64,000 nucleotides of DNA from Clytia hemisphaerica. Taxonomy: Eukaryota. Under the pieces are notes generated by a model. That model was not told the DNA's origin, made no database searches, and was given only the letters and a program-made list of their open reading frames with translations. The position numbers were made by a program, and so were the translations under genes. Shown piece after piece: positions 4,295 to 56,477 of this stretch; the first letter of the stretch is position 1; every line of letters begins with the position of its first letter. The stretch is from assembly GCF_902728285.1 (NCBI RefSeq), contig NW_027104315.1, positions 238,032 through 302,031 on the forward strand. The letters are read 5' to 3'.

Positions 4295-4392
4295 CAGATC
4301 ATTTGAGCCAGATATGATTATGTCTTCAGTGGGATGGCACGACAGACAATAAATGACACCACCTGCGTCTGTCGCCGAACAGAGCTGGTTTC
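4295..4392 (-). CDS. Paralog A exon 12. WD40 blade reading GNQLCSATDAGGVIYCLSCHPTEDIIISGSNDL.
   Basis: Acceptor is cgtatctttgtAG|GAAAC and donor is GATCTG|GTAAGA. Length is 98 nt. Confidence 0.6.
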
Positions 4393-4853
4393 CTACAAAG
4401 ATACGTACAATCTTTCATTACACGTTTTTATTAAGAACATTAGGCTTCGATGGTCAACATATAAAGAACATATTAAGGCTTTGTGGACTCTAAAACGTCA
4501 AATGTTCTTGGAAAATTGCACAAAATGCTCACAAAATGGTGAAATTAAGAAAATTTGAAGGCTTCAAAATTATTGGATGTTGAAAAAATCATAAAAAATA
4601 GGAAAACTAGTTCTCGTCCAAATTTGTTCCCTTCGTGTATTTTATTAGTATATTGCTACTTTGCTTTGAAAAAAATTTCATTACTAATTATAGTTTAAAG
4701 TTCCAAAACGACTAAAATTTATTCCCTTCATTGGGGCTTAGGGAAGTGAAAATCAAAAACATCAAATCTTTCATTCTACATGGGGAGGAAGAATTTAACA
4801 ATTCAATAAAAAAAGCGAGAAAAGTTATAAATTGGAATAAAGGGAAATCTTAC

Positions 4854-5106
4854 CTTGGAGATCCCATCCAATAATTTCACCACCCAAATGAGCTGAGAAA
4901 ATCATTTCCAAGCGTTCATTATAACAATAATCAAATCCAGGCTTTTCAGTACACCATTTCTTGACAATTCCAAACGAACTCTTATCTAAAACAGCGATCC
5001 ATGAGTCTTCCTTGTTTCCATCCCAAGTGATCGCCTTCCTTTCCCAGCCAGTACCGCTGAGGATGTGGTTGTCGGTACATTCTAGCCAAGCAATGAAAGA
5101 TGGACT
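4854..5106 (-). CDS. Paralog A exon 11. WD40 exon ending ...IFSAHLGGEIIGWDLQG.
   Basis: Acceptor is ttctgccctAG|AGTCC and donor is CAAG|GTAAGA. Length is 253 nt. Confidence 0.6.
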
Positions 5107-5714
5107 CTAGGGCAGAATACATAAAAGAAATTAGTAAATTTAGTGTAATAGCCGTAGATATATGCTAGACCAATAATTCAGACATATTAAAAAATAAACA
5201 AAAATAATGAAAGGAACAAAATCGTAGTCTGCAGTTTATATAAACTTTTGTTATCCCGCAATAATAATCTTATTAGCATATAACAGCCATAGAACTGTAT
5301 TATAAGGATTATAAAAACGACTCAAGTCTAAATAAAGTCATAAGCAGGTAAACTAATTGGTAGGAAACTCATTTTCAAAAAACTCAAATGAAAGAGTTCT
5401 CTAAGTAAAAAGGAGTGGGTATTAACCGCCACAAATATAAATCACAACCTAAAGTAGACTGGAGTCGTTTATAATGCGTGTAATAAGACGTTATATGATA
5501 ATACGATTATTGTTACGGGATTTAGTTTGTATATAAAATAAAATTGTTCCCTCCATTACTTTTTGCTTTATTTCTACTATGTCTGAATTAGTCGTCTAGC
5601 TTACTAGACTAAACTAAAGATATTTTTTTCTTAATGATATAGAAAAGAGATTACAAAGTAGACTAGACTCTACTTCTGACTGAACTTTGCTTTTTGATAA
5701 TATTTTATGAGACA

Positions 5715-5942
5715 CCCCCCCCTCAGCGGTTTGCGTGATGGCGTGATTGGGACTTCTTACTTGCGTGATGGCGTGATCAAGATTTTGGCGTGATGCGTGA
5801 TAGGGTATTTGGGCTATTTTTCGCTATTTTTCGCTATCTTTCGCTATTTTTTGCGTGATGACAAATTTTAGCGATTTTCGTGATGCGTGACGGAGAAATT
5901 TTTTTTGCATGATGTCGTGTTAAGGGGTGCCGCTGGGGGGCC
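5715..5942. mobile_element. Small MITE of about 230 bp with C-run TIRs, CCCCCCCCTCAGCGG and CCGCTGGGGGGCC, and internal GCGTGATG and TTTTTCGCTAT repeats. A solo homologous terminus lies at 24373-24392.
   Basis: Inverted termini were read directly. No TSD was resolved. Confidence 0.4.
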
Positions 5943-6385
5943 TCTTTTATGACGCTGGGTCTAGGAGCATTTGACGAGGTAGCCATTTTGAAAGAAAATG
6001 TTAAAAATCCAAATAATTAAGAAGCTACTTAGAGTTGAAAAATATAATGAAAAATGAGAAACAAACATCAAACATCAGTATCAGATTTGCAATCCCTTAT
6101 TTTTAAATAAAAATATTGCTTCATACTGTTTTTACCTTCCAAAAGAAACTTAAAGTCTGGCGGACTGTATAAGCAAAAGCTTATTACCATATACTACCGG
6201 GCCACTTAATCGCGCCATCCAGTCTATAAAAAAGCTTTAAGTGGACCCCGGGCTAATTAAAAAGCAGAATAAACAAAGAAATTTCCCAAAATTTGTGCTC
6301 GGGGCGGCACCGAAATGGGGAGAATCTTGTTCTTTCTTTCTTTTGTTTAAAAATGCTTTGTAAGCAAAATGGTAAGAGGTACGCT

Positions 6386-6727
6386 CCCGGGGGGGGGGGG
6401 CACTGGGTTTGCGAACTGACGGTATGTGCGTGCCAAAAATTGGCTTTTAAAATTGCATCCTTACAGTGCAGCAAAAATCAGTGAAAATCATACCCTTAGA
6501 GTGCATTTCCCTCCAAATGTTCGATCCCTTTCGTGCAAAAAATGGTCAAAATTCTAGTATTTTTGGTCAAAATATCTATAATTTTCAAGAATTTTCTGAA
6601 ATTTCTACCCTTACAGTGCATCTTTAGTTTTTCCGACCCTTACAGTGCATTTTAAACATATTGGAAAAGGTACCCTTAGGGCCCGCACATACCCGTCGGT
6701 CCTTTTGCCCAGCTGCCCCCCCCCGGG
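6386..6727. mobile_element. hAT-like MITE of about 340 bp in intron 10 of paralog A. TIRs are CCCGGGGGGGGGGGCACTGGG and CCCAGCTGCCCCCCCCCCGGG. It is flanked by an 8-bp direct repeat GGTACGCT at 6378-6385 and 6728-6735. The interior carries 5 degenerate copies of ACCCTTACAGTGCA.
   Basis: TIRs and the 8-bp TSD were read directly. An 8-bp TSD is typical of the hAT superfamily. Confidence 0.5.
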
Positions 6728-6806
6728 GGTACGCTAAATGATGACCTTTAACTTTTCAAGCAAACAAGGGCACGAGGAGGCGTTGCGAGTGAGGGTGAAA
6801 AATTAC

Positions 6807-7639
6807 CTCGTTAAAAACGTTGACTGATTGTTCACAAGAAGCTGTAGAGACATCCCACCGCGATATTTCTCCTTTGACTTCACCAACAAACAAAGTTTTG
6901 CCGTCTACCGAAATACAAACAGCGGAGCCGCGGACCTTCAGTTCATGAATCACCTCTGCACTGCTTTGGTCCATGATCGAGGTCGTATATTGGTCCACTA
7001 TGGCAACTAGGTCTCCTTTCGTGTTTGTTGCAGCGCAGTTGATACCTCCTTGAGCGTATTTAACAAGCATCGGATCACCTTCCGTAGGGACGTTGACCCA
7101 ATATAAGGGGTACGCTTCCCCCTTAATCGAGGGCTCCATCCCTAGAGCCAAGGTATCTTTAGTGACGTATGAGGTGGGAGCTTGTGTTACAGCCATGTTA
7201 AGACAGAAATTCGGGAATTCCCGAATATAGGATGTGTAGAGCTGAACAAACGAGGCCCATTGCTTGAGAGCATCTATGTCATCTGTATTTGTGAGTGTTT
7301 CCAAGGCGAGAGTGTATTCGTCACTAAGGCTTTGATGCTGTTTAGCAACAATGCGTTGTTTAACAAAGTGGATATTCCTCAAACTCGTTTTCAAGCTTTC
7401 CAAAGGTGAATCTTGATTTTGGTGAGCTTTGAGTTGATGGTAGACCAGTTGTTCTAGGGAGTGTTCGAAATATGCTGGTGGTTCCTCTTGAGGTGTTTCA
7501 CAGCATTGCTTGGTGATAATGTCTTCGAAAAAATCTCTCATCCACGCGTGTGTTTCTTGTTCGAATGATTCCGTCATAAATTTTTGACGCACGGCATATT
7601 TGAGCTGGTCGTGGAAGAATCGAAGATAACCACCTCCGC
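6807..7639 (-). CDS. Paralog A exon 10 (833 nt). Helical region, then the start of the WD-like sensor. The divergent region relative to paralog B begins around 7100.
   Basis: Acceptor is tgttttgtAG|GCGGAGG and donor is AACGAG|GTAATT. Phase is 1 to 0. Confidence 0.65.
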
Positions 7640-8175
7640 CTACAAAACATTACGTTAATAATTTTAGATCTGAATTGTGAGTCCCTGTTTAAATAACTTT
7701 GAATATTTCTTTTACTGTGTGTCCCCTAAATCAGCTCCTTAACGATATTTCAAAAATGAAGAGCCTTAGTTCCAGTTAATTCCTGAACAGCGCAGTCGGC
7801 CTTATAGGGAGGGGTCTGGTAAAAAATGGCCAGGGTTGCTACAGCTTTACCAAGTTGAAAATTCCAGACTTTTAGTCTCAAAAGCCATGTTTTCCGGATT
7901 TACCTAAAAAAGTCAAACATTTTCCAAATATTTTGGTAAAATACTCAATATTATCCAGACATTTCATCCATTAGGAAGGTTTTCAGTTTTTTGTTAACGG
8001 TCATTTGAAAGAACACATTGATGAATACAACGGAATGAGAAATATCAGAATGAACAAGTAAAGATTTGGTTACGGGCTAAGCGAGGGAATTTCATTAGGT
8101 ATAAGCTATCAAAGGGCAATCTTACAATTATTCTGTTAAAAAAATAATTACGGGAAAATATCCAAAAAACCTCAC

Positions 8176-8763
8176 CAGCAGCTAAAAAATGAGCAATCGA
8201 ATCGTAGATTCTTGGAAAATTTGCATCGTACAGAAACTCTCCATCGCCTTTTTCTCTTTGTTCTTTAAAATGCAGAAGGTCGTTGATTTGGTTTTCCAGT
8301 AAGCCATCTTTTGAAACACACAATAATCCTGCAACGTCTTCTACAAATAGTTTACCGTAATCGTTAGACCATTCGTCTAAAAGGAAGCTAAACAGATCTG
8401 TAATGGTGTTTGGTAGACTCTCAATATACTGGGTCACTTTCTCGAAAATTCCAAACTTCCTCAGAGCCTCACATGCAGCGATTAAGTACAATGGACTTTG
8501 ACTTTTGGACAACAATTTCTCCATTTGATTTCCCAGAATTGGATCCTGATTTTCAGTTAGCTTCTTATTAAACCTTTCAAGTGTTGCTCGGACCATTTCT
8601 TGCAAATCCGCATGACTCATGTTTTCGATAGGAAGGCGTTGTGCATCTGGTGAAACATTGCAAGCGTTCTGAAATGTCCCATTTTCTTGGTTTAATGTTG
8701 AGATCATGAATTTGAGATTTTTTGGAGCTGCTTTTGGTGGAAGCCACCACATATCCCAAGCAC
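8176..8763 (-). CDS. Paralog A exon 9. Post-NACHT helical region of 195 codons.
   Basis: Acceptor is ttatttcAG|GTGCTTGG and donor is GCTG|GTGAGG. Length is 588 nt. It is one codon shorter than paralog B, with PKAAPKN here versus PTKKAPKN there. Confidence 0.65.
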
Positions 8764-9476
8764 CTGAAATAATAAACAAATAACGCATAAAAGGAATTGT
8801 GACACTTTTAAAGCAGTCAGCATTTATAGTGTGGTCGTGTTACAAAAATACAGGCTGTTTGTAGGAAAAAAATATTACTGTCTCCAAAATTGCGAGGTTA
8901 TGTATTTGCACTTTTGAGAACAGCAGAGTGACTGAAGGAATTTGGAATAAGTATTGACCCGCAAATTCAAGGACGGTAAAAGTATGTCCTTCAGTCATTC
9001 AGGATCTAGACAACTAAGAAGCTAATAAATGTATTTGCCGAAAGGAAACACATATAAATAAGCTCACTAATGAATGACCTCTACAAAATTCAGAATACGG
9101 ACCTCCGCAATGTCTTCTGACATATATGTTTTTATGGTGTTATGTTGTTACAACTGAGGTGGTTGAATCTACGTGATTTTGTAATTATCTCTGACGTCAT
9201 TACAGTGCATAGTTCGGACCCCTTCTTTCTTAAAGGGGGATGACACCTTCCGAAAAATGAAGAGGAAGGAAGGGGGGATAATTTAAGAAGGGGGCTTATA
9301 TATTGTAGATTATTTTCAAGCACTGTTATGAAATTTGGTCTTCATGAGATGAAGTTTTCTCTTAGAATAGTTTGATTCAAAAAGAAGAAAGAAGTTTGCA
9401 GTGGTACATATCCTGACCATGAAAGACTTCATCTTTTTTCGAACCAAACTGAACGGTAATGGAATCTTAAACTTAC

Positions 9477-9677
9477 CAAGCCCACTGTGGAATTGATTGA
9501 CTGCATCAATAATGATAACAAATAATTTTTTTGGATATTGATTCGCACTTTCGATAAGAAATTCGTGATGTTGTTGTTTCAGCTCTGAAGCATTTCCAGT
9601 AAATTCTTTGGATAATTTCGTTTCACCCATATCTCGTCTGTATTTTCTCAAATTGATTTGAAGTCTGCGCATCATGC
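9477..9677 (-). CDS. Paralog A exon 8. NACHT Walker-B exon reading ...KKLFVIIIDAVNQFHSGLG.
   Basis: Acceptor is tttaacgcAG|GC and donor is CTTG|GTAAGT. Length is 201 nt. Confidence 0.65.
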
Positions 9678-10249
9678 CTGCGTTAAAATAAATACAATAA
9701 CAATAATTACAATAACACAACTCAATAAATATACTTTGAGACTAGAGTTTTGAAATTTGCTGACTGTTTTCGGCGCTACTCAAATACCTCAAGATCTAGC
9801 CATGAAAATCCATGGTATTCTCAAAAATGATGACGCCAACATAAAAATTTGCATTTCGAAGACGTATTGTCCATTTCCGAGGAACTTCATCGACCAAACA
9901 AGATAAATGACCGCATTTTGGAGATCTATCTTAAGCTCTAACAAATGGTACAACAAGTTCTTGTCAATGAGGAATTTAGAAAACTGACTTTCCAATGATC
10001 TTTTTCAAAAGGGTGTCGTTTTGGCCAAACGATTCTAACCCGCCTTCAATAGTTCAAAGAAAACTTTCTCCAGCTTTGCCAGCTTGGCAAAAACTGGTTT
10101 TGAAGCCTAGAGGAGCCTTATGTTCAGAAAATAAAAAATACCTTTATATACTGTTTGTCAGGGTCCACCAAGACCACCTCCGGACTAAATTTTAGGCGAA
10201 TATATAGTAGACCCATCATTATTTGGTTATTGACAAACTATAATCTCAC

Positions 10250-10524
10250 CTTCCAAAACATTGGAACCAGGACAAGTATCAACTGCATGGATAAACAAAA
10301 AGTTATTGTTTTCTTGAAATTCCTTCGAACATAAAACCGCAACTTTGGCCAACAATCCGGACTTTCCGCAACCCGGTTCACCATGCAGGATCATAGTATT
10401 TGCATTATTGCCACATTTTGTAGAACAGTGTTTAAAAGCCTTGTCAACAAGATCTGTTCGACCAACAAAAGTGGATGCTTTCAGTTTGACGGCGTTCTCG
10501 TGTTGAATTGATTCCATCGCATAC
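10250..10524 (-). CDS. Paralog A exon 7. NACHT P-loop exon with Walker A GEPGCGKSG.
   Basis: Acceptor is ctctttccttcaccAG|G, with a strong polypyrimidine tract. Donor is GAAG|GTGAGA. Length is 275 nt. The 49 N-terminal residues of ORF 10227..10673 are SINE-derived intron, not exon. Confidence 0.7.
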
Positions 10525-10552
10525 CTGGTGAAGGAAAGAGTAATAAGTAGTA

Positions 10553-10759
10553 CTGAGTAAGTCTGCGACCGCATGGTAGGGGAGGGCGCCACTCTTTCTC
10601 CTTGGATTGCTCCACTTACCCTTGATTCTTCCCTTAATTGCTGAGCATCAAGAAGAGAGGCATCGAGTACCATTTTGGGAATCTTTAGTATGACTCAGCT
10701 GGGGTTGAACCCACAACCTTGTGTACCGTAGCCGGATGCTCTACCACTGACTACGACAG
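10553..10759 (-). mobile_element. tRNA-derived SINE, antisense to the plus strand and in the sense orientation of the gene. It lies in intron 6 of paralog A with its 3' end about 30 nt upstream of the exon 7 acceptor. It is flanked by a 9-bp TSD TAAGTAGTA at 10544-10552 and 10760-10768, and carries about 45 bp of internal deletion relative to the other copies.
   Basis: Pol III A-box-like TAGTCAGTGGTAGAGC and B-box-like GGGTTCAACCCC are present. The direct repeat was read on both flanks. Confidence 0.6.
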
Positions 10760-11307
10760 CTAAGTAGTAAGAAGAGTGATGAGCATCTCTAGTGTAGAAT
10801 TCTTTGGGTTTCCCACGATAAACGGAGGTATGTCAATAAAATCTAGAGAGAGATCTAAACAGTATAATTTATGACTTGACGTTTTATGTGAGAGGTCGAA
10901 AGATCAAGAAAATGTTGGTAGTTTTTTAAATATATTTTTCAGAAATATTAGGGAATATTGACAACCGTTTAAAGTCAAACTTTGTCAAAAATGAGCCAAG
11001 AAAAGATATGCAGATGGAGGCTAGGTGAGGTGAATCCCAAAAGTAGTAATCGAAGATACTTGTTACAGCCTAGCTTTCGCAGTCCACGTAGTTTTCATAC
11101 AAATAACGATTTACGACAAGATTTAGAAAAAAGTGCCAGGCAAAAAACAAAACCAGTGCTAGATTTAAGGCATAACTTAAATCTTTCCTGGAAAAGGTGG
11201 AAGATTCTTCTCTTGCCCTCGGTTACATCTCATTGGACCTCGTGACTTGAGGTTGTTTTGTTCCCGGAACTCAAACTATTCAACGGACTTGAAATAAAAA
11301 TTCTTAC

Positions 11308-11514
11308 TGATCAACCTGAGTGGTATCAACGGATGAATAATTCGATAAAATCGCCTCCATTAAATCATCCTCGACTCGTTTTTCGAAATCCTCCAACTTT
11401 TTCACGTAACCAACTCCAAAACTCTTGGCGTTCTCTCGTTTGCAAGTGATTTTTGCATTGACGAATTCTGCGTTGTATTCAAACCATTTGATTTGAGGAT
11501 GATTTTGAATGAAC
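11308..11514 (-). CDS. Paralog A exon 6. Reads KFIQNHPQIKWFEYNAEFVNAKITCKRENAKSFGVGYVKKLEDFEKRVEDDLMEAILSNYSSVDTTQVD.
   Basis: Acceptor is tttttcAG|GTTCATTC and donor is GATCA|GTAAGA. Length is 207 nt. Confidence 0.6.
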
Positions 11515-23856: not shown

Positions 23857-23954
23857 AAAGTCTTTAGAGCCTGAGATGATCATGTCTTCAGTGGGATGAG
23901 GTGAAAGGCAATAAATAAATTCACCACCGCCCTTAGCTGAGCATAGTTGATTTC
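23857..23954 (-). CDS. Paralog B exon 12. WD40 blade reading GNQLCSAKGGGEFIYCLSPHPTEDMIISGSKDF.
   Basis: Acceptor is cattttcttAG|GAAAT and donor is GACTTT|GTAAGT. Length is 98 nt with phase 1 to 0. Confidence 0.6.
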
Positions 23955-24432
23955 CTAAGAAAATGAATTGTCATAAGTACGCCTACAAATTTACTCAATT
24001 TTTAACCATATTTTCTTCTTTATCATTTCCGCAGTACACAAAAGGGTGTAAACTATCTTAAACCAAGCAATAGCTCATAACATAGAAAAGAAACACCAGG
24101 GAATAAGGCACACATAGCGTAAAGCCCAAGAGGATGGTACTCAAGGTAAACGGCCCTTTAAAGGGTATGTTTTTCGAGCTTCAAAAAGTACACTGAAAGG
24201 GTGTAAAAAAGTGATTTTTAGGGCAAAATTTACCTGACCAATTTTTTGCCTCTAATTGGGCAAAAAGGGTCGATATTTTGATCAAACTTAGAATAGTTTT
24301 CTCTTCACTGCAAAGGGCCGCTTTTAAAGTCCGAATTATATTGGACCGGATATATGGTTGTTCGTAAATCGAGTGCCCCCCCCCCGCTGAGGCTTATGAA
24401 AATTCAAACAACCAACATTTATCTTGAATTAC

Positions 24433-24682
24433 CTTGAAGGTCCCATCCAATTATGTTGCCCCCTACATGTGCTGAGAATATAATCTGCAATCGTTTGTGA
24501 AAGCAGTAATCGAAAGCTGGCCTCTCCATACAAAATTTCCTGGTAATTTCAAATGAATTCATATCAAGAATTACAATCCATGAAGGTTTTATGTCATACT
24601 TCAAAAATGCTGTTTTGTCAAACCACCCAGTACCGGTAAACAGATCATTTCCATTACAATCAAGCCATGAAATGTAACAAAC
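24433..24682 (-). CDS. Paralog B exon 11. WD40 repeat exon ending ...IIFSAHVGGNIIGWDLQG.
   Basis: Acceptor is tactttaAG|GTTTG and donor is CAAG|GTAATT. Length is 250 nt with phase 0 to 1. WD dipeptide context was read directly. Confidence 0.6.
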
Positions 24683-24969
24683 CTTAAAGTATCAAAATAT
24701 TATAAAAATATAACTGCCATGACATACACAGGAAATACCAAAGCAAACCACTTTTGGGTTAATCAAACAGTAAAAGCTGCAATCCATTGATAAATTTAAA
24801 CAAGTTAAGCATTTCAGCTGAAAACATTTTTAAGGATTATAAGAAATCTTTTCATTTAAAGTAGTTAAAATCTAAAAGATGTTTTTAATATTTTTCAGTA
24901 TGATATTTCACATAACAAGTGATACTTTTATGGACCTACCTGCGGTTATGCATTTAACACGTATATAAT

Positions 24970-25274
24970 CCCGGGGGGGGGGGGGGTACTAGGGCAAGAT
25001 GGGTTACGGGGATGCTCCGCTGGTCAAGGTACCTTTTTTACCTCCACGAGTCCCAGGTAGGGTCGCAAAAACACCAAAATAGAAAAATCAGTCCCCCGTA
25101 GGGTGCCTATTTTTGGAAAATTTGGGGAAAAAGTAGAAAATTTGACAAAATTTGGGAATTTCAGTCCCATTCAGGGTCACTTTTTCGCAAATTTCGAGTC
25201 CCACGTAGGGTCCATTTTTCGAACGTCAGCGGAGCACCCCCGTCGGTCGACAAGGGTAGTACCCCCCCCCCGGG
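24970..25274. mobile_element. Related G-run-terminated MITE of about 305 bp in intron 10 of paralog B. It has an 8-bp TSD TATATAAT at 24962-24969 and 25275-25282 and TIRs CCCGGGGGGGGGGGGGGTACTAGGG and its reverse complement. The interior has four tandem units of about 35 bp of the form AGTCCCnnGTAGGGTC.
   Basis: Read directly. Termini resemble those of the 6386-6727 element but the internal sequence differs. Confidence 0.5.
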
Positions 25275-25849
25275 TATATAATTGATATCTAAGTGAGCGT
25301 GACCATTAAACAATCATTCAAACACAAATAGTGACGATCTTTTAAAATTAGTCGTCTGTTTCTTATAAAAAAAACCGTTTAGAAACCTAAATTTCATGCT
25401 CTTTAAATATTCTTTCATTCAAGCAAGCAATATCTCATAAAAAAAATTGAGTAATTTGACTAAGAACATTGATGTATGCTTATTAATAGTGATTCTTATA
25501 GATAAACGTGCTTTATTTGAGCTGAAAAATTCGTTTTTTACAAAAATCTGCTTGAGCCATCTTTTACCTACTTTCATACAAAAAATCAGAAAACATCAAT
25601 GATCCGATTTTTCACAAACCGTTTTTCAGCCGTTTTTTGGCTCAAATTTGGCCAAAGATTTTTCCGAAAATCGGGCTCCGTCACATTTTGGGCATTGCCA
25701 TTTTGCATCATTGTGCAAAAAATCAGAAAAAACTAATGAGCCAATCTCGAGAAAAGCTGGTAACTAACGAACGGACGGACGGACAAAGGTTAATTTATAG
25801 GACCTCCAGGTAGGTCCAAAAAAACAAACTAAACAAAGAAAACACTTAC

Positions 25850-26682
25850 TTCTTCCAAGATTTCACAAGCACTTTCCAGTCTACCTGTAGAAACATCATA
25901 TTTTGATACCGTTCCTCTGTCATCACCAATAAGTAAAGTTTTGCTGTCAGCTGTAAGAAGAACAACTGACGCTCGTCCATTTACCTGGTGGACTAACTCT
26001 CCACTTTTTTGGTCAAATACACAAACTCTTTCCCACGCCATAATGGCTACTAAACCACCTTTTGAGCTCGTAACAGCACAGTCAATACCCCCTAGAGCGT
26101 ATTTAGCAAGCATCCGGTCACATTCCTCAGGTATGTTGGACCAATATAAAGGGTACGCTTCCCCCTTAACTGAGGGCTCCATCCCTAGAGCCAAGGTATC
26201 TTTGGTGACGTATGAGGTTGGGGCTTGTGTTACAGCCATGTTAAGACAGAAATTCGGGAATTCCCGAATATAGGATGTGTAGAGCTGAACAAACGAGGCC
26301 CATTGCTTGAGAGCATCTATATCGTCAGTATTTGTGAGTGTTTCCAAGGCAAGTGCGTATTCGTCACTAAGGCTTTGATGCTGCTTGGCAACAATGCGTT
26401 CTTTAACAAAGTAGATATTCCTTAAACTCATTTTCAAGCTTTCCAAAGGCAAATCTTGATTTTGATGAGCTTTGAGTTGATGGTAGACCAGTTGTTCTAG
26501 GGCGTGCTCGAAATATGCTGGTGGTTCCTCTTGAGGTGTTTCACGGCATTGCTTAGAGACAATATCTTCGAAAAAGTCTCTCATCCACACGTGTGTTTCT
26601 TGTTCGAATAATTCCGTCATAAATTTTCGGCGCACGGTATATTTGAGCTGGACGTGGAAGAATCGAAGATAGCCACCACCAC
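25850..26682 (-). CDS. Paralog B exon 10 (833 nt). Helical region, then the start of the WD-like sensor. The near-identity with paralog A ends inside this exon.
   Basis: Acceptor is ctgtttttAG|GTGGTGG and donor is GAAGAA|GTAAGT. Phase is 1 to 0. Confidence 0.65.
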
Positions 26683-26913
26683 CTAAAAACAGTATGCCAT
26701 TAATTAGAGTCATCTATTTGTGTGTCAACTAGATCAGTTCATGTACGAGGTTTTCTAAAGTGAAGAACTCTAACTCACTAGGTATTAGGTATTAGCTAGG
26801 GAGTATGAAAGTGCTATATTTCAACAATGTTTATCTTAGATTGCGCAACTCTTAATGCTGTTACCATTATGTTGTTAAAAAATAATTACGGGAAAATATC
26901 TAGAAAACCTCAC

Positions 26914-27504
26914 CAGCAGCTAAAAAATGAGCAATCGAATCGTAGATTCTTGGAAAATTTGCATCGTACAGAAACTCCCCATCGCCTTTTTCTCTTTGTT
27001 CTTTAAAATGCAGAAGGTCGTTGATTTGGTTTTCCAGTAAGCCATCTTTTGAAGCACACAATAATCCTGCTACGTCCTCAACAAATAGTTTACCATACTT
27101 TTCAGACCATTCGTCTAAAAGGAAGCTAAACAGGTCTGTAATGGTGTTTGGTAGACTCTCAATATACTGGGTCACTTTTTCGAAAATTCCAAACTTTCTC
27201 AACGCCTCACATGCAGCGATTAAGTACAATGGACTTTGACTTTTGGACAACAATTTCTCCATTTGATTTCCCAGAATCGGATCCTCATTTTCGGTAAGCT
27301 TCTTATTAAACCTTTCAAGTGTTGCTCGGACCATTTCTTGCAAATCTTCATGGCTCATGTTTTCGATGGGAAGTCGTTGTGCATCTGGTGAAACATGACA
27401 AGCGTTCTGAAATGTCCCATTTTCTTGGTTTAATGTTGAGATCATGAATTTGAGATTTTTGGGAGCTTTTTTTGTTGGCGGAAGCCACCACATATCCCAA
27501 GCAC
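26914..27504 (-). CDS. Paralog B exon 9. Post-NACHT helical region reading AWDMWWLPPTKKAPKNLKF...HFLAAG.
   Basis: Acceptor is ttttttAG|GTGCTTGG and donor is GCTG|GTGAGG. Length is 591 nt with phase 1 to 1. An in-frame stop lies immediately 3' of the donor in this copy, which supports an intron here. Confidence 0.65.
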
Positions 27505-28390
27505 CTAAAAAAGTAAATAGATAACGCTTAAAGGAAATTGTGATACTTTTAAAGCAGTCAGCATCTAGACTAATATTACTGTCTCCAAAATTGCGAGGTT
27601 TTGTATTCTCACTTTTGAGAACACTGAACGGAGTGACTGAAGCGATTTGGAATAACCCGCAGTATTGACCCGCAAATTTGAGGACGGTAAAAGTATGTCC
27701 TCAGTCATTTAGGATCTAGACAACTAAGAAGCTATAAATGTATCCGTCCAAAGGAAAGACATATAAACAAGCTCACTAATGAATGACCAACAAAGTTCAG
27801 AATATGGACTACCGCAATGTCTTCTGATAAATATGCTATTATGGTGTTATGTTGTTATAACCAGAGCTGGTTGATCCTACGTAATTTTGTAATTATCTTT
27901 GAAGTCATTACAGTGCATAGTTCGGACCCCCTGCTTTCTTAAAGGGGGATGACAACTTCCGAAAAATGAAGAAGAGGGATAAGAATTTTTCATGAAAAGG
28001 GGGGGGTAGCAAGGAAGGGGGATACATGTTTTTTTCTTTTATAAGCATAACGTTTATAAGCATATGCAGGCTCAGTTTTTGGTACCCAAACAATGGCTCT
28101 ATTGTTTGAGAACAATAGAATGCTAAGCATAATGCGAGCCTGATGTAGGGGCACATGCTTATAAATGGACACTTGCTTATAAAAAAAAACATGTAGTTTA
28201 AGAAGGGGGGCTTACTTATATATTGTAGATTATTTTTAAGGACTGTTATGAAATTTGGTCTTCCTGAAAGAAAGTTTTCTGTTAGGGGGGGGGGGGTCAG
28301 ACCCCTTTCTGCACTATTCAGTGGTGCATATCCTGACCATGAAAAACTTCATTTCTTTTCGAACCAAACTGAACAGTAATGGAAACCTAC

Positions 28391-28591
28391 CAAGCCCACT
28401 GTGGAATTGATTGACAGCATCAATAATGATCACAAATAATTTTTTTGGATATTGATATGCACTTTCGATGAGAAATTCGTGATGTTGTTGTTTCAGCTCT
28501 GAAGCATTTCCAGTAAATTCTTTGGATAGTTTCGTTTCACCCATATCTCGTCTGTATTTTCTCAGATTAATTTGAAGCCTTCGCATCATGC
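28391..28591 (-). CDS. Paralog B exon 8. NACHT Walker-B exon reading MMRRLQINLRKYRRDMGETKLSKEFTGNASELKQQHHEFLIESAYQYPKKLFVIIIDAVNQFHSGLG.
   Basis: Acceptor is atcaacgcAG|GC and donor is CTTG|GTAGGT. Length is 201 nt with phase 1 to 1. LFVIIIDAVNQ is a hhhhD Walker B-like motif. Confidence 0.65.
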
Positions 28592-29042
28592 CTGCGTTGA
28601 TATAAAGAGTAAACAATGACGAAATTCAATATTAATAAACTTTAAGATTCCAAGTCCAAGAAAAGGTGAAAATCTTTTACAAGCGTTAGCAAAAATGATT
28701 ATAGAGGTAACATTATAGTTATGCATACTGCATTCAAAAACGTCCGTACGTTCGACTCAACATTAAGCCTTTAAATTTAGACCCTTACAATGCAGAGTAA
28801 ATTTAGCCAAAGTTGAGTTTGCGCGAAAAATAGACCCTTACGGTGCATTTTCTTGAAAGTTTTTTACTATTTTAAGGCAAAATATGGTCAGATATTCCAA
28901 ATCTTACACCCTTAAAGTGCAATTTCCCATCTTTGCTCATTTTGACAGCTGAAGGCATTCTAAACTAAGAGTTTTGGACAAATACATTGCAGATTCTTCA
29001 TGTGCCCTCGGTACGGTGGTTGTTGACTGACTATAATCTCAC

Positions 29043-29317
29043 CTTCCAAAACATTGGAACCAGGACAAGTATCAACTGCATGGATAAACAAAAAGTTATT
29101 GTTTTCTTGAAATTCCTTCAAACATAAAACTGCAACTTTGGCCAACAATCCGGACTTTCCGCAACCCGGTTCCCCATGCAGGATCATAGTATTTGCATTA
29201 TTGCCACATTTTGCAGAACAGTGTTTAAAAGCCTTGTCAACAAGATCTGTTCGACCAACAAAATTTGACGCTTTCAGTTTGACGGCGTTCTCGTGTTGAA
29301 TTGATTCCATCGCATAC
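29043..29317 (-). CDS. Paralog B exon 7. NACHT P-loop exon reading YAMESIQHENAVKLKASNFVGRTDLVDKAFKHCSAKCGNNANTMILHGEPGCGKSGLLAKVAVLCLKEFQENNNFLFIHAVDTCPGSNVLEG. Walker A is GEPGCGKSG.
   Basis: Acceptor is ttcttacaccAG|G and donor is GAAG|GTGAGA. Length is 275 nt with phase 2 to 1. Walker A GxxGxGKS was read directly. Confidence 0.7.
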
Positions 29318-29345
29318 CTGGTGTAAGAAAAAGTAATAAGTAGTA

Positions 29346-29601
29346 CTGAGTTAAGTCTGCGACCGCAGTCGGAGGCAACCTGAAGGCTCCTCTTTCGATA
29401 GCTATCTACCCGATGGTAGGGGAGGGCGCCACTCTTTCTCACTGGATTTCTCCACTTTCCCTTGATCCTTCTCTTAATTGCTGAGCATCAAGCAGAGAGG
29501 CATCGAGTACCATTTTGGGAATCTTTGGTATGACCCAGCATGGGGTTGAGCCCACAACCTTGTGCACCGTGGCTGGATGATCTACCACTGACTACGGCCG
29601 C
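29346..29601 (-). mobile_element. Orthologous tRNA-derived SINE copy in intron 6 of paralog B. It has the same 9-bp TSD TAAGTAGTA at 29337-29345 and 29602-29610, so the insertion predates the duplication or homogenization.
   Basis: Same flanks and position as the paralog A copy. The full-length body includes the gggtagatagctatcgaaagaggagcc segment. Confidence 0.6.
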
Positions 29602-30076
29602 TAAGTAGTACTGAGTAATGAGCATCTCTAATGAAGAAATTTTTGGGTATTCCCACGATAAACGGACGTATGTCAATAAAATCTAGAGAAAGATCTAAAC
29701 AGTATACTTTATGACTTGCCGTTTTATGTGAGAGGTCGAAAGATCAAGGAAATGTCGGTAGTTTTTGAAATATATTTTTCAAAAATATCAAGAAAAGATA
29801 TCACATTGACAGCCGATTATCAGTCAAATTTTATCAAAAATGCGTCAAGAAATAAGATATTTGAAGATACTTGTTACACTCTTACTCGCTCAGTCCGCGT
29901 TGTTTTCGCACAGACGCCGTTTTTGAAAAGTGTGCCACTCAAAAATAAAGCCAGCGCTAGATTTAAGGCATAACTTTTTCTTTCCTGGAAAAGGTGGAAG
30001 ATTCTTCTCTTGTCTTCGGTAACATCTCATTGGACTTCGTGACTTGAGGTTGTTTTGTTTGTCTATTCAACAGACT

Positions 30077-31578
30077 TTAAATTAGCGAGCACCTCACTAA
30101 AAACCGAGATTTTTCATCTCGTTTCTTAGTGAGTTGTTTCTTAAGCCTGCCGTCCACTAGTGCTATTTTTGGTTATCGTGAAATGTAATCGCGAAATGTT
30201 ATCTCATGTCTGAACTTATAATTAGTTACATGTCCACTATTAAATAGGATATTTGCGAAATAGATATCATTTCTTTCCAACTTTGTAGAAGGCTTTTTCA
30301 GCGGTATCTGGAAAATTAAAATAAGTATTCATTAAGATCCAACACCATCTCAAGAGTAGGATAGATACAGTATTTGGTTAAATCAATCAAGGGTCTCAGC
30401 AGACAACACTTTCCATTGAGTGTTTCGAAGTGGTTTTTAACAACAACGTATCCGAGTAAAACTATTTGCAATATCCGCGTAAAGTAATAGAAATTGGATG
30501 ATAAAAATCGGACAAATCTGTGGATTGTATTTTTACCTTCTTCCATTCCAAGAAATTTTTCGATTTGCTCCAACAATTCTTCTTGAGTGGTTTATTTTTG
30601 TGGTCGGGATGCGACTTATCATAGAAGCATGTATAATTCCTGACGGCTTCAAATAGTTTTTCATCTTTTTTCTAAATTATTTTTGCCTCTATGGCATGTT
30701 GATAGAAAATACAATCACACTACACGTTTTTTTTATTAGAACACCTAAAATTTGGCTGAGCCTGGATGTGCTTATTTTTTAGCAATTTTCAGCCTAAAAT
30801 GTTCTTAAATGCGTTCTTAATTTTTCAGACTACTCTAAATCGGCAATATCATACAAAATAAAGAGCACTTAAAAATTGGTAAAATTTGGACAACTGCTTG
30901 AAAAGAGGAAAGAATTGTAGTTTCTTGTCATTTTTTTTCCAAATTGAGGATGGGCATGTTCCTACGATGTTCTTAATTTTTCAACGAAAGTAAGCCTCAA
31001 TGTTCTTATAAAATGGGTTCTAAAAAAACGTGTACACACCAAAATTCAAAAATCCTCTCATGTGATGAAGATGTTTTTATCGCAAAATGATTTTCTCTAA
31101 TTTTTTCTTCGATCACATGTAATTCGATCTTGTGCAAACATTGAAATAAAAGAAATGCAGGTGGTTCTATTGTTAAAAACTATCGCGAAACAAAGGTTTC
31201 GCGATTGGATAAAATCTTGAGTGAAAACTTTTTCACTCCCTATCGTGAAATAAAATAACGCGATAGACAGGCTTATTTCGCGATAGACAGTGTCTTTGAT
31301 AGATGATCATTTCGCGATAGCTAAAAAAAGCCTAGTGGACGGCAGGCTTTACTGAGTTTCACTTTGACGATTTTTGAAAAATAGAAGCCTTTCAAGTGCT
31401 TTGACGCAAATTCGATTTTTTCGCTACTGCAGGAGCTTCAAAAGTTAAAAGTGACGTCAAAAAATTGAATGTTTAGAGCCCGAAAACCCGGGCTCAAAAC
31501 ATTCGAAAAGTCGCAAAGTGGAAAAGACGTTAATTGCGTAGAGAAAACGCGGGTGACGTCTAGTATAGGCTAACTTTA
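30077..31578. mobile_element. Insertion of about 1.5 kb present only in intron 6 of paralog B. Paralog A is contiguous at 11250-11262. It contains a TIR element at about 30150-31350 with 19-bp TIRs, AAGCCTGCCGTCCACTAG and its reverse complement, and subterminal ATCGCGAAAT and ATTTCGCGAT repeats.
   Basis: Paralog alignment breaks exactly at these points. TIRs were read directly. No long ORF is present, so it is nonautonomous. Confidence 0.5.
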
Positions 31579-31593
31579 AATGAAAATTCTTAC

Positions 31594-31800
31594 TTATCAA
31601 CCTGAGTGGTATCAACGGATGAATAATTCGATAAAATTGCCTCCATTAAATCTTCCTCAACTCGTTTTTCAAATTCCTCCAACTTCTTCACATAACCAAC
31701 TCCAAAACTTTTGGCGTTCTCTCGTTTGCAAGTGATTTTTGCATTGACGAATTCGGCGTTATATTCAAACCATTTGATTTGAGGATGGTTTTGAATAAAC
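31594..31800 (-). CDS. Paralog B exon 6. Linker region reading ...FIQNHPQIKWFEYNAEFVNAKITCKRENAKSFGVGYVKKLEEFEKRVEEDLMEAILSNYSSVDTTQVD.
   Basis: Acceptor is tttttcAG|GTTTATTC and donor is GATAA|GTAAGA. Length is 207 nt with phase 2 to 2. The apparent in-frame TAA is bypassed because the donor GT precedes it. Confidence 0.6.
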
Positions 31801-32279
31801 CTGAAAAATAGGAGACAGAAAAAGTTGAAGAAATGAAGGCTAAAAATAGTTCGAAACTTCGAAACCTTTTTGGAATTGTTCAAAACACTTGGCCATTTTG
31901 GGCGAAATGAGCTAGGATTGTTTCTTTTTACAAACTATTTAATTGATCATTGCAGTGAAAAGAAAGTTATTAGGCTTTAATGTAGTTTTTCAATTCAAGG
32001 TACCCCAGAGTTTCATCTTTGGTGGGCTATAAATCCAAACAAAGAGGTTTTCGAAGACCTCGTAGCTACCTATTGAAAAAGCATGAAATCCTGAAGAAAA
32101 AAATTAGTTTTGGGTAGCACTTTCGTTTTTGAAATTCTTAATTATTTATTTCAAAAAGTTACAAAGCTCTTGGAATGAAAGCGTTTATCAATAAGAAAAT
32201 ATTATTTTCAAAATAGTTTGAGAAGCAATAATAAGTACACATTAGTGAATATTTTTAAGTAGATAAACCCTATCCCTAC

Positions 32280-32421
32280 TTGTTCAAAGCATCTCTATCC
32301 TTTTCGTAAGCTGAAGCATTTTCATTCACGGTGTATTGAAATTTCAATTGCAGATCTTCCATCTCTTTTTCCACATACTCAAATTCAAAAATCCATCGAA
32401 ATTCTTCAGGAAATTTTGTAC
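32280..32421 (-). CDS. Paralog B exon 5. Linker region reading GTKFPEEFRWIFEFEYVEKEMEDLQLKFQY...
   Basis: Acceptor is ttttaAG|GTACAAAA and donor is AACAA|GTAGGG. Length is 142 nt with phase 1 to 2. Confidence 0.55.
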
Positions 32422-32865
32422 CTTAAAAGAAAAATTTATTTGAAAGTTATCAGCCCCACAGATTTTATGCAAGAGATGAACGTAGTTGTTTGATGACCTT
32501 GCAAAAGGTTTTTCCAGGTTTTCAGACTCGAATGTCAATTTTTTGACGTCACTTGAAATTACTTGCAGTATATATAGAGAAAAATCGATTTACTTATCTT
32601 TTTAAAGACTCAAAATCATTTTCGTTGAGTTTAAATATACATACAATATACAATGGTAAAATAATTCTGTTTTGAAGTGCCCCCACTGACAAGAATAGTG
32701 CAATACAGAAAGCGAAGTGTGGCTAAGAGGGACACTAGGACCCGAGCGTAAGTAGAAATCGAATTTGAACACTTGAAAGGCTTTTCAAAAAATAATCAAA
32801 ACGTAAAATATTGCAATGTTTTTTTGCAGCTCAGTACTTTTATTAAATGAACTAACATATTTTAC

Positions 32866-33026
32866 CTTTCGGCATATTTGGTATATCCAACATATTTCTT
32901 TTGTAGAAGAAAACAGTAGGTGACTCGGATTTGATTTTGCCAGATTGCGAAGCTTGGATGGCTTCTAAAGATGTGATGCTGACCTTTTTACCGTAACTGT
33001 CAAATCTTTTGATCCAGTCGTATAAT
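32866..33026 (-). CDS. Paralog B exon 4. Linker region homologous to paralog A LYNWIKRFDSYGKKVSITSLEAIQASQ...
   Basis: Acceptor is tcgtcAG|ATTATAC and donor is AAAG|GTAAAA. Length is 161 nt with phase 2 to 1. Near-identical to paralog A exon 4. Confidence 0.6.
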
Positions 33027-33363
33027 CTGACGAAAAGATAGACTTTAAAATATCAATGGAAAAGACTCACATAAAGTCGGAAGTCATATTATCTAAGAGG
33101 GGGGAATTTGGACGCTTCGAAATCTCATTTTTAATAACTATTTCTCTATGACATAAGGATATTTCAAACTTTTGGCGTGAGGTCAAGGAGGGCAAACGGA
33201 TCCTTTCTCATAGAGTCCTTATGTGAGAGCGTGGCTATAAATCTATAAAACCCGAAATTTCTAAACGGGACACCAAAGTAACTGTGAAACCTTTTAAAGA
33301 TTATGTACACAAGGAAACTACCAATATGTGCATAAAAGATCGAAAAAATTAATTTCCACCAAC

Positions 33364-33617
33364 TTTGGCTGCTCGAATCCATTATCTGGTAAATAGTTAT
33401 CCTGCACCCAACCATATCGATCTGTTCGAAGTCCTAAAAACCATGGCATGTACACAATATCGTCCCGACATTTATCGATCTGATTCAAACAAGTTTTTTG
33501 GATTTCTTCGCAATTTTTGCTCTCATCAGCTAAAACACCCCATCGAAGATCAACTGGTATTACTCGGATGAATTTTGAGGCCAATTTTCGATTGATGCTT
33601 GGAATAACACGTTGTAC
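33364..33617 (-). CDS. Paralog B exon 3. Continues DUF4062, reading ...CLNQIDKCRDDIVYMPWFLGLRTDRYGWV...
   Basis: Acceptor is tttAG|GTACAACG. Donor is CCAAA|GTTGGT, which is weak (GTTAGT in paralog A). Phase is 0 to 2 and length is 254 nt. Confidence 0.55.
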
Positions 33618-34127
33618 CTAAATAAATGGGGGAAATGCTAGACTAGATTTTAAGATAATATAGTGTATGGTTCTCCTAAAATTAGATCCCCTGATAAGGG
33701 ACCTCCTCTGTGTGGCAATTCCCCTCTTTAATATAAGCACTCGCGGTTCTAAGAGCTTTCAAAGAGACCTTTAGCTTTAAAAGTCTCTGAGCGCAATCCG
33801 TTAATGAAGAACCTATAAGGTCTGATTCTATTCTAGCCCCAAAGGGTTTCATTTCCAACAATTAGGAAAATTAGAATAATTCAGTTGGCTCAGAACGTTC
33901 TTTCAACGTTCATCTAATATTCACATTATTCATATAATGTTCACATTATTCATATAACGTTACATGAACCTTGAAACAACATTGTGCGCTATTTGGGAAG
34001 AAAACCAAAATATCACCATCGGCATCCCTATAGAGATTTAAGCTAGTTGCGGTAGAAAAACCATGGTTTCTATTCTCCACTAAAGCCATGTAATCTGGCA
34101 CTTTTCAAGACAAATGAAATCACATAC

Positions 34128-34286: not shown

Positions 34287-34324
34287 CTAAAAAAATCATC
34301 AAAGAGTTGTGTGTACAGTGGAAC

Positions 34325-54999: not shown

Positions 55000-55320
<321 letters not shown>

Positions 55321-56391: not shown

Positions 56392-56477
56392 TTAACACTT
56401 TTGATGGAATATCTTCCTTGTATTACATATGGTTCTTGACTTAACTTATTCTAAACATAATTATATTGTTTCCATAG

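What the first reader, a model, noticed from the sequence alone, without database searches (positions are those of the whole stretch)
7080..7130. Sharp identity breakpoint inside exon 10 between the two paralogs
From about 200 bp upstream of the ATG through exons 1-9 and into exon 10, the paralogs are near-identical. The matching stretches are 15850 down to about 7100 in A and about 35700 down to about 26130 in B. Most exons differ at only a few residues and even intronic SINE copies are shared. Just 3' of the motif GEAYPLYW the proteins fall to roughly half identity. For example, WVNVPTEGDPMLVKYAQGGINCAAT in A aligns with WSNIPEECDRMLAKYALGGIDCAVT in B, and exon 11 is only about 50% identical at the amino-acid level by eye. 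Introns beyond the breakpoint are not alignable. This fits either a recent partial duplication or gene conversion that homogenised the N-terminal DUF4062, NACHT and helical parts while ancient, divergent WD40 sensor modules were retained. Put differently, the pattern suggests a conserved signalling chassis with swapped or diversifying sensor domains.
Basis: seen in the sequence. Interest (0 to 1): 0.8.

Follow-up and report, generated by a model that had tools for sequence, protein, structure and literature searches.

The report
Half-shared tandem immune-receptor-like gene pair
Two neighbouring jellyfish (Clytia hemisphaerica) genes for NACHT-WD40 "switch" proteins share a recently copied front half and keep anciently different sensor halves. 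The join falls within about 10 bases, in the linker between the two modules, which is a real but already familiar way for such gene families to evolve.

Summary
Two tandem minus-strand paralogs encode DUF4062(TIR-like)-NACHT-helical-WD40 proteins. Gene A has exons 1-12 in the window. Gene B has 19 exons and 1539 aa.

- **The step.** CDS identity is 95.3% over 2697 nt, then drops to 63.2% over 639 nt. The maximum-likelihood breakpoint is at A 7097 / B 26140, with support interval 7107-7097 (chi2 546; largest of 1000 permutations 26).
- **Silent sites step too.** dS goes from 0.18 to 1.7, and introns 10-11 show no homology. Faster protein evolution therefore cannot explain the step.
- **Phylogeny flips.** Quartet sites support A+B at 16/18 upstream and 4/48 downstream. 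A control pair of paralogs elsewhere in the genome (C/D) shows no such step (95% versus 91%).
- **Position of the join.** It is in frame, has no indel, and lies in a predicted linker between the last helix and the first propeller strand.

Best reading: non-allelic homologous recombination (gene conversion) homogenised the region from about -160 bp to codon 899 between anciently diverged tandem genes.

Caveats: "near-identical" is overstated. Only six of nine upstream introns keep interior homology. One tract versus several, and a swap of the WD40 half, are unresolved.

Domain-restricted conversion is known in NLR families, so this is a new member of a known kind.

The parts
7097..7107 (-). Breakpoint interval in gene A exon 10. 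It falls just after codon 899 (W of GEAYPLYW), in frame and with no indel.
   Evidence: Maximum chi-square and likelihood profile; flanking identities.
26140..26150 (-). The same breakpoint interval in gene B exon 10.
7098..15805 (-). Gene A homogenised segment: about 160 bp of 5' flank, exons 1-9 and the first 542 nt of exon 10. It encodes DUF4062 (aa 92-183), NACHT (407-582) and the APAF1_C-like helical domain (783-884).
   Evidence: Exon model; dS 0.175 and dN 0.020; 5' limit of similarity; Pfam.
26141..35625 (-). Gene B homogenised segment, the counterpart of A 7098-15805.
4295..7096 (-). Gene A divergent WD40 part inside the window: the rest of exon 10, intron 10, exon 11 (5106-4854), intron 11 and exon 12 (4392-4295). 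Exons 13 onward lie beyond the window start.
   Evidence: Model A equals XP_066930011.1.
16276..26139 (-). Gene B divergent WD40 part. Exons: rest of exon 10, then 24682-24433, 23954-23857, 23034-22842, 22495-22419, 19667-19498, 19239-18954, 18391-18265, 17021-16860 and 16538-16276 (stop). The ORF is intact.
   Evidence: propeller Pfam hits.
6807..7639 (-). Gene A exon 10 (833 nt). It carries the end of the helical domain, a linker of about 35 residues and the first propeller blades.
   Evidence: AlphaFold2 model: last helix ends at fragment residue 164, first strand starts at 200, break at 180/181.
25850..26682 (-). Gene B exon 10 (833 nt).
10544..10774 (-). tRNA-derived SINE in gene A intron 6, with target-site duplication TAAGTAGTA... 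at both ends. The copy has a 46-bp internal deletion.
29337..29615 (-). The same SINE insertion in gene B intron 6, with identical target-site duplication TAAGTAGTACTGAG. This shows the intron was copied as genomic DNA after the insertion.
12170..12632 (-). Gene A intron 4. It lies inside the homogenised region but its interior has no homology to B intron 4 (32422-32865). The same holds for intron 7 (A 9678-10249 / B 28592-29042) and intron 9 (A 7640-8175 / B 26683-26913).
19900..21500 (-). Degenerate non-LTR reverse-transcriptase remnant inside gene B intron 14. It is specific to gene B.
   Evidence: ORF fragments; RVT_1 match, E = 3.7e-9.

Best explanation
Genes B (upstream) and A (downstream) are head-to-tail neighbours in Clytia hemisphaerica, with only 629 bp between B's stop codon and A's ATG. 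Both encode NWD1/TEP1-type STAND proteins. The front half is a TIR-like DUF4062 effector domain, a NACHT oligomerisation ATPase and an APAF1-like helical domain. The back half is two WD40 propellers.

The WD40 halves are old lineages. Their synonymous sites are saturated, their introns are unrelated, and they are about 51% identical in protein. That is as far apart as either is from paralogs on other scaffolds.

The front halves coalesce about ten times more recently (dS 0.18). One gene was used as the repair template for the other by non-allelic homologous recombination, that is, interlocus gene conversion. This happened in one tract of about 9 kb or in a few exon-anchored tracts of similar age.

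Copying ran from about 160 bp upstream of the ATG to codon 899. It stopped just past the family-invariant YPLYW-N-P motif, in the linker before the first propeller strand, where sequence homology runs out.

The result is two genes with one effector-and-oligomerisation module and two different sensor modules.

**Shown:** the step, the silent-site contrast, the topology switch, the in-frame join, and the position in the linker.
**Inferred:** the recombination mechanism, the number and direction of events, and any functional benefit.
For: **The step**
- Maximum chi2 is 546 against a permutation maximum of 26. The break is at A 7097 / B 26140, with support interval 7107-7097.
- dS/dN is 0.175/0.020 upstream and 1.69/0.356 downstream. 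Four-fold-degenerate sites are 86% versus 48% identical.
- Exon 10 is 833 nt in both genes, so the join is in register.

**Introns**
- Interior homology is present in introns 1, 2, 3, 5, 6 and 8 (weakly in intron 1, z = 5). It is absent in introns 10 and 11.
- The same SINE, with the same 14-bp target-site duplication, sits in intron 6 of both genes. The copied material was therefore genomic DNA, not cDNA.

**5' limit**
- Similarity ends about 160 bp upstream of the ATG, and no further paralog lies upstream of gene B in the window. This argues against an unequal-crossover triplication.

**Comparison with relatives**
- Outgroup transcript P0007: dN(A-B) is 0.019 against dN(A-P7) 0.212 in the N-terminal part, and 0.352 against 0.339 in the WD40 part.
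- Control pair C/D: 95% identical in the N-terminal part and 91% in WD40. A/B: 96% and 51%.
- NJ trees: ((A,B)100,C) for the N-terminal part and (A,(B,C)100) for WD40.
- Quartet sites supporting A+B: 16 of 18 upstream and 4 of 48 downstream (Fisher p = 7e-10).

**Domain position**
- APAF1_C ends at about residue 884 and the first propeller match starts at 926.
- The AlphaFold2 model puts the break in a low-confidence linker between the last helix and the first strand.

**Symmetry**
- A-derived and B-derived substitutions since the event number 14 and 15.
Against: - Introns 4, 7 and 9, which lie inside the 'homogenised' region, have no interior homology. Only 25-55 bp next to their splice sites aligns. 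A single recent 9-kb tract does not predict this. It needs either several separate tracts or heavy intron turnover afterwards. No transposon signature was found to support turnover.
- Exon-to-exon divergence is only weakly heterogeneous (p = 0.012 for all sites, 0.051 for third positions), so the number of events is open.
- Only two genomic sequences were available. The tail of gene A and paralogs C and D could be compared as proteins only.
- The B+C grouping in the WD40 tree could partly be long-branch attraction.
- A tract of about 9 kb is long for gene conversion (own knowledge).
- Donor and recipient cannot be told apart.
- A recent whole-gene tandem duplication followed by replacement of one WD40 half gives the same two-gene picture.
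Confidence: 0.68

Rival explanations
1. Sensor swap. A recent whole-gene tandem duplication (unit from about -160 bp to the 3' UTR) made two identical genes. The WD40-encoding 3' half of one copy was then replaced by ectopic recombination with a third, divergent family member.
For: The 5' limit of similarity in gene A (about 15805) lies only about 470 bp past gene B's stop codon (16276). That is where a tandem-duplication junction would fall. Other family members exist on other scaffolds. The WD40 region itself looks mosaic: A is 72-82% identical to C/D over residues 1026-1100, and the tail of B shares states with C.
Against: No donor is visible. B's WD40 is at most 55% identical to A, C, D or P0007. 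An exhaustive search with the 97 residues after the break found nothing above 51% identity. The replaced tract would have to run at least 9.8 kb to the end of the gene. The unalignable upstream introns are no better explained.
Confidence: 0.2
2. Same age, different rates. A and B are whole-gene duplicates of one age, and the WD40 half simply evolved much faster under positive or relaxed selection.
For: WD40 regions evolve faster than the front half across the family. B and C have long branches in the WD40 tree.
Against: Selection on protein does not saturate synonymous sites (dS 1.69 versus 0.175; four-fold sites 48% versus 86% identical). It also does not erase intron homology exactly 3' of one codon. 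The control pair C/D, with the same front-half divergence, keeps 91% WD40 identity. Quartet sites reject A+B in the WD40 part. B's WD40 ORF is intact over 640 codons.
Confidence: 0.04
3. Assembly artefact. The shared front halves are haplotypes or a collapsed repeat mis-joined to two different 3' ends.
For: UniProt holds chimeric models that join B's 5' exons to A's 3' exons. This shows the region confuses assembly or annotation.
Against: The copies differ by 5% in CDS and 8-24% in alignable introns. They differ by kilobase-scale indels and have three unrelated introns. That is far beyond allelic divergence (own knowledge). Both genes have complete canonical splice sites and open frames. Gene A equals the RefSeq protein.
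Confidence: 0.03

Closest known systems
Zebrafish NLR-B30.2 family (Howe et al. 2016, Open Biol, PMC4852459)
   Same: [quoted passage not shown] It keeps NACHT and N-terminal parts homogeneous within groups while the recognition module follows another history. The inference rests on different synonymous divergence of the two parts. That is the same logic and the same pattern as here.
   Different: That case is a family of hundreds of genes in which the sensor is B30.2/LRR and is itself exchanged. Here there is one tandem pair (plus two further paralogs) in a cnidarian, the sensors are WD40 propellers that are not exchanged, and the breakpoint is mapped to about 10 nt in a linker.
Podospora anserina hnwd / HET-E, -D, -R NACHT-WD genes (Chevanne et al. 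2010, PMC2873952)
   Same: These are STAND proteins with NACHT plus WD40 repeats, and their paralogs undergo concerted evolution and gene conversion.
   Different: In Podospora the WD repeats are shuffled and homogenised. Here the WD40 half escapes and the effector-NACHT-helical half is homogenised.
Human NWD1, NWD2 and TEP1 (DUF4062-NACHT-helical-WD40; bioRxiv 10.64898/2026.05.01.722283)
   Same: The domain order is the same. DUF4062 is described there as a TIR-like NADase fold occupying the position of the CARD domain in APAF-1. The N-terminal domain of gene A matches the solved TEP1 TIR-like domain, PDB 11gz_A, with E = 2e-17.
   Different: There are no TROVE or vWA domains, so these are not TEP1 orthologues despite the RefSeq name. 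In that paper only TEP1 among the human proteins showed NADase activity. Nothing is known about activity or ligand for the Clytia proteins.
Sequence exchange in plant NLR clusters (own knowledge, not tested here)
   Same: Tandem NLR paralogs form chimeras by unequal crossing-over and gene conversion, with breakpoints that separate the NB-ARC part from the sensor repeats.
   Different: The kingdom and the repeat type (LRR) differ. In plants, exchange often diversifies the sensor rather than homogenising the signalling part.

Membership tests
NWD1/NWD2/TEP1-type STAND ATPases | N-terminal DUF4062 (TIR-like) domain | tested here: met
   PF13271 scores 30.6-35.8 bits against a cut-off of 24.7. phmmer match to the TEP1 TIR-like structure 11gz_A, E = 2e-17.
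NWD1/NWD2/TEP1-type STAND ATPases | NACHT P-loop NTPase | tested here: met
   PF05729 scores 28.7-32 bits against a cut-off of 26.7. NPHP3_N scores 29.4-32.4 against 24.8. The Walker A motif GEPGCGKS is present in both genes.
NWD1/NWD2/TEP1-type STAND ATPases | APAF-1-like helical domain between the NTPase and the repeats | tested here: met
   PF17908 scores 23.5 bits against a cut-off of 22.8 on the gene A exon-10 fragment. It scores 21.3 bits, just under the cut-off, on the full-length protein. It was not detected on the gene B fragment at E <= 0.01. The AlphaFold2 model is all-helical up to fragment residue 164.
NWD1/NWD2/TEP1-type STAND ATPases | C-terminal WD40 propellers | tested here: met
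   Many beta-propeller families match, down to E = 1e-23. PF00400 scores 40-67 bits against a cut-off of 27, in both A and B.
TEP1 proper (vault / telomerase protein component 1) | TROVE and vWA domains N-terminal to DUF4062 | tested here: not met
   Only about 90 residues precede DUF4062, and no such Pfam match is found. The RefSeq name 'telomerase protein component 1-like' is a similarity label.
TIR-like NADase activity of DUF4062 | Catalytic glutamate (E1008 in human TEP1) and NAD+ hydrolysis | tested here: inconclusive
   A Glu in SITSLEA aligns with the second Glu of the TEP1 sequence SVTEMEV. The numbering offset of the PDB chain is uncertain, and activity cannot be tested here.
Interlocus gene conversion / non-allelic homologous recombination | Abrupt change in silent-site divergence between the same two genes | tested here: met
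   dS is 0.175 upstream and 1.69 downstream. The change point has a support interval of about 10 nt.
Interlocus gene conversion / non-allelic homologous recombination | Different phylogeny on the two sides of the breakpoint | tested here: met
   NJ trees with 100% bootstrap for conflicting groupings. Quartet sites 16:2:0 upstream and 4:16:28 downstream. Caveats: protein-level data and possible long-branch attraction.
Interlocus gene conversion / non-allelic homologous recombination | Junction in register at a homologous position | tested here: met
   Exon 10 is 833 nt in both genes. There is no indel at the join, and the frame is kept.
Interlocus gene conversion / non-allelic homologous recombination | Formal recombination tests on three or more nucleotide sequences (GENECONV, RDP, 3SEQ) | not tested
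   Genomic DNA of paralogs C and D was not retrievable. Only maximum chi-square on the pair was run, plus an outgroup CDS.
Domain-restricted concerted evolution of an NLR-like family | The same module is homogenised repeatedly or across many paralogs | tested here: inconclusive
   AB versus CD: 82% identical in the front half but about 52% in WD40. A versus P0007: 67% in the front half but 60% in WD40. This is suggestive, but unequal rates can explain it.

The most novel reading that the evidence does not exclude
The Clytia NWD/TEP1-like family may evolve by module-restricted concerted evolution. In this reading, the TIR-like effector, NACHT and helical module is repeatedly homogenised among all paralogs, possibly keeping them able to co-oligomerise. 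A small set of ancient WD40 sensor lineages is protected from exchange, with the invariant YPLYW-N-P linker acting as the recombination stop. The B-5'/A-3' transcript models in UniProt might even reflect real splicing from B's promoter into A's exons.
Probability: 0.2. Interest if true: 0.55.

Novelty: new member of a known kind. Interest (0 to 1): 0.35.

Why it matters
STAND/NLR-type proteins join a sensor to an oligomerising effector module. How families of them gain new specificities without breaking the signalling part is a general question in innate immunity.

This locus gives a cleanly mapped example in an early-branching animal. The front half is TIR-like, NACHT and helical, and it is kept the same in two neighbours. 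The WD40 sensor halves are ancient and different. The join sits in the interdomain linker.

It also has a practical consequence. Gene trees built from the NACHT region of such families will misdate duplications. Annotation of this locus is already confused: chimeric B/A models exist, and no gene B protein was found in the searched collection.

It does not reveal a new mechanism.

Tried and rejected
1. **Rest of gene A in window 1-4294.** Searched with tblastn using B's 3' exons and the RefSeq tail. Nothing was found, so A's exons 13 onward lie outside the window.
2. **Genomic DNA of the other Clytia paralogs.** P0006, P0125 and P0128 are not on record. The spliced gene B protein was not accepted as a query.
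3. **Protein search with B's whole WD40 region.** It was swamped by generic WD40 proteins, and not even gene A was returned.
4. **Exhaustive search with the 97 residues after the break in B.** It gave 2906 generic WD40 hits. The best specific hit is 51% identical, so no B-type orthologue or donor was found.
5. **Inverted-repeat (MITE) search in the unalignable introns 4, 7 and 9.** Nothing convincing was found, so intron turnover by transposons is unproven.
6. **Tests for sub-structure inside the homogenised part.**
   - Longest identical run: p = 0.18.
   - Second change point: p = 0.13.
   - Exon heterogeneity: p = 0.012 for all sites and 0.051 for third positions.
   - Relative rate: 14 A-derived versus 15 B-derived substitutions.
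   - A hand count of runs in the order of A- and B-derived changes was also not significant (not a tool result).
   - Together these neither prove nor exclude several tracts.
7. **Unequal-crossover triplication model.** Rejected because similarity stops about 160 bp upstream of the ATG and no paralog lies in the 28 kb upstream of gene B.
8. **cDNA-mediated conversion.** Rejected because introns and a SINE were copied.
9. **Rfam and ARAGORN on the window.** No hits. The SINE's tRNA-like head was recognised only by eye.

Full report
**What the window is.** The sequence is AT-rich (35% GC), and its CpG observed/expected ratio is mostly 0.6-1.0. A protein search identifies it as Clytia hemisphaerica, a hydrozoan jellyfish. 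The front half of gene A is 99% identical to UniRef A0A7M5XDG4. The complete model A is identical to RefSeq XP_066930011.1, named 'telomerase protein component 1-like'.

**Gene models.** Two paralogs lie head to tail on the minus strand.
- Gene A has exons 1-12 between 15647 and 4295. Exon 12 ends at a conserved donor site. The remaining exons are not in the window.
- Gene B has 19 exons from 35453 to a stop at 16276. All introns are GT-AG and the ORF is an intact 1539 codons.
- Only 629 bp separate B's stop from A's ATG.
- No third copy is in the window.

**Domains.** Pfam gives DUF4062 (aa 92-183), NACHT/NPHP3_N (392-582), the APAF1_C helical domain (783-884) and WD40 propellers from residue 926. 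The N-terminal domain matches the solved TIR-like domain of human TEP1 (11gz_A, E = 2e-17). A 2026 preprint describes DUF4062 as a TIR-like NADase fold that occupies the CARD position of APAF-1 in NWD1, NWD2 and TEP1. There is no TROVE or vWA domain, so these are NWD-like proteins rather than TEP1 orthologues.

**The observation.**
- On a codon alignment of exons 1-12, identity is 95.3% over the first 2697 nt and 63.2% over the last 639 nt.
- A single change point fits at A 7097 / B 26140. Chi2 is 546 against a maximum of 26 in 1000 permutations, and the likelihood support interval is 7107-7097.
- Exon 10 is 833 nt in both genes, so the join is in frame with no indel.
- The 100-nt windows either side read 97%, 94% | 76% (70 nt), 54%, 58%. 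The 70-nt shoulder is only nominally significant (p = 0.012, chosen after the fact).
- The quoted peptides and the figure of about 50% for exon 11 are correct.

**It is a difference in age, not only in rate.**
- Upstream, dS is 0.175 and dN 0.020. Downstream, dS is 1.69 (saturated) and dN 0.356. Four-fold-degenerate sites are 86% and 48% identical.
- Introns 10 and 11 have no detectable homology (z about 1). Six of the nine upstream introns have interior homology at 76-92% identity.
- Intron 6 of both genes holds the same tRNA-derived SINE with the same 14-bp target-site duplication. A third copy at 43778-44030 has a different one. Genomic DNA, introns included, was therefore copied after that insertion.

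**Outside evidence.** Three relatives could be used. P0007 is an intronless metatranscriptome transcript (L001). C (XP_066919425.1) and D (XP_066927272.1) are two further Clytia paralogs on other scaffolds.

| Pair | Front-half aa identity | WD40 aa identity |
|---|---|---|
| A-B | 96% | 51% |
| C-D | 95% | 91% |
| A-C | 82% | 53% |
| A-P0007 | 67% | 60% |

(All values.)

- The C-D pair is a natural control. At the same front-half divergence, the WD40 half normally stays about 90% identical.
- At the codon level, dN(A-B)/dN(A-P0007) is 0.019/0.212 upstream and 0.352/0.339 downstream.
- NJ trees give ((A,B)100,C) for residues 61-899 and (A,(B,C)100) for residues 900-1519.
- Quartet-informative sites among A, B, C and P0007 support A+B at 16 of 18 upstream and 4 of 48 downstream (Fisher p = 7e-10).
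- The B+C grouping may be inflated by long branches. Even so, A and B are clearly not sisters in the propeller half.

**Where the join lies in the protein.** APAF1_C ends near residue 884 and the first propeller match starts at 926. An AlphaFold2 model of the exon-10 product (mean pLDDT 84) has its last helix ending at fragment residue 164 and its first strand starting at 200. Confidence is low in between, and the break is at 180/181. Just 5' of the break is the motif YPLYW, followed by N and P. These are family-invariant columns (W180, N182, P184). After that, the nucleotide sequences of A and B diverge at once.

**Mechanism.**
- An in-register join at a homologous codon implies homologous recombination rather than random insertion of a duplicated piece.
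- Similarity ends about 160 bp upstream of the ATG, and nothing paralogous lies upstream of gene B. An unequal-crossover triplication would have duplicated the intergenic region and a preceding gene, so it is not supported.
- The simplest account is interlocus gene conversion between two old tandem paralogs. It covered about 8.7 kb in A and 9.5 kb in B, and it stopped where homology ended.
- Substitutions since the event are symmetric, 14 A-derived and 15 B-derived, so the direction is unknown.

**What does not fit neatly.** Introns 4, 7 and 9 lie inside the homogenised region, yet only 25-55 bp next to their splice sites aligns. Their interiors are as unrelated as introns 10 and 11. There are two ways out.
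- Several exon-anchored tracts could have left these introns unconverted. Possible tracts are exon 1 (with intron 1 showing only weak interior homology), exons 2-4, exons 5-7, exons 8-9 and the first part of exon 10.
- Alternatively, one tract was followed by heavy intron turnover. Five of the nine upstream introns differ by more than 190 bp in length.

Exon divergences are only weakly heterogeneous (p = 0.012 and 0.051). No transposon termini were found in these introns. I leave this open.

**Rivals.**
- A recent whole-gene tandem duplication followed by replacement of one WD40 half cannot be excluded. The 5' limit of similarity is where a tandem junction would lie. However, no donor is visible: B's propellers are at most 55% identical to anything found.
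- Equal age with fast WD40 evolution is contradicted by the silent sites, the introns, the C/D control and the quartets.
- A mis-assembly is unlikely given 5% CDS divergence, large structural differences between the copies and two intact genes. It may be relevant that UniProt carries chimeric B-5'/A-3' models.

**Comparison with known cases.** Differential gene conversion that keeps NACHT and N-terminal parts homogeneous while the recognition module has another history was described for the zebrafish NLR-B30.2 family, by the same silent-site argument (PMC4852459). Concerted evolution in fungal NACHT-WD genes affects the WD repeats instead (PMC2873952). Searches of the held literature found no description of this for Clytia or for cnidarian NWD-like genes.

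**Verdict.** The phenomenon is a new, well-resolved member of a known kind. Interest is moderate to low (0.35).

Noticed in passing
window 15647-4295 and 35453-31594 (exons of A and B): UniProt models A0A7M5XDG4 and A0A7M5XCY9 join gene B exons 1-2 (or 1-6) to gene A exons 3/4 (or 7) onward. No protein with gene B's own WD40 half was found in the searched collection. These are either transcript-assembly chimeras across near-identical exons or real B-to-A splicing.
   Followed up: partly
window 10544-10774, 29337-29615, 43778-44030: A tRNA-derived SINE family. Box A- and box B-like motifs are visible by eye, although ARAGORN and Rfam report nothing. The two intronic copies share one target-site duplication and the third copy has another. 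Each intronic copy is about 91% identical to the third copy.
   Followed up: partly
window 19900-21500 (-): A degenerate non-LTR reverse-transcriptase remnant (RVT_1, E = 3.7e-9) in the same orientation as gene B, inside its intron 14.
   Followed up: partly
window 55018-57353 (+): An actin gene with at least one intron. Its second coding block, 56553-57353, matches Pfam Actin with E = 4e-106.
   Followed up: partly
window 36046-36729; related copy 57534-57755: A tandem repeat with a unit of about 220-240 bp (three copies, 78-87% identical) lies about 400 bp upstream of the limit of A/B similarity at gene B. A related single copy lies next to the actin gene.
   Followed up: no
P0009 (Bolinopsis microptera LOC134824088): A ctenophore protein is 59% identical to the Clytia front half over 91% of its length. 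That is as close as most of the presumably cnidarian metatranscriptome relatives. This is unexpectedly high for cnidarian versus ctenophore. It could reflect contamination, gene transfer or strong conservation.
   Followed up: no
gene A residues 1026-1100 (exon 11 3' half and exon 12, window 4990-4330): Inside the divergent WD40 half, A is 72-82% identical to paralogs C and D but only 54-70% identical to B. This hints at older exchanges among propeller blades.
   Followed up: partly
window 3771-3830 / 25749-25808; 4429-4496 / 36308-36376 and 36528-36596: Short interspersed repeat fragments are shared between non-homologous introns and the region upstream of gene B. They are not part of the paralogy.
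   Followed up: no
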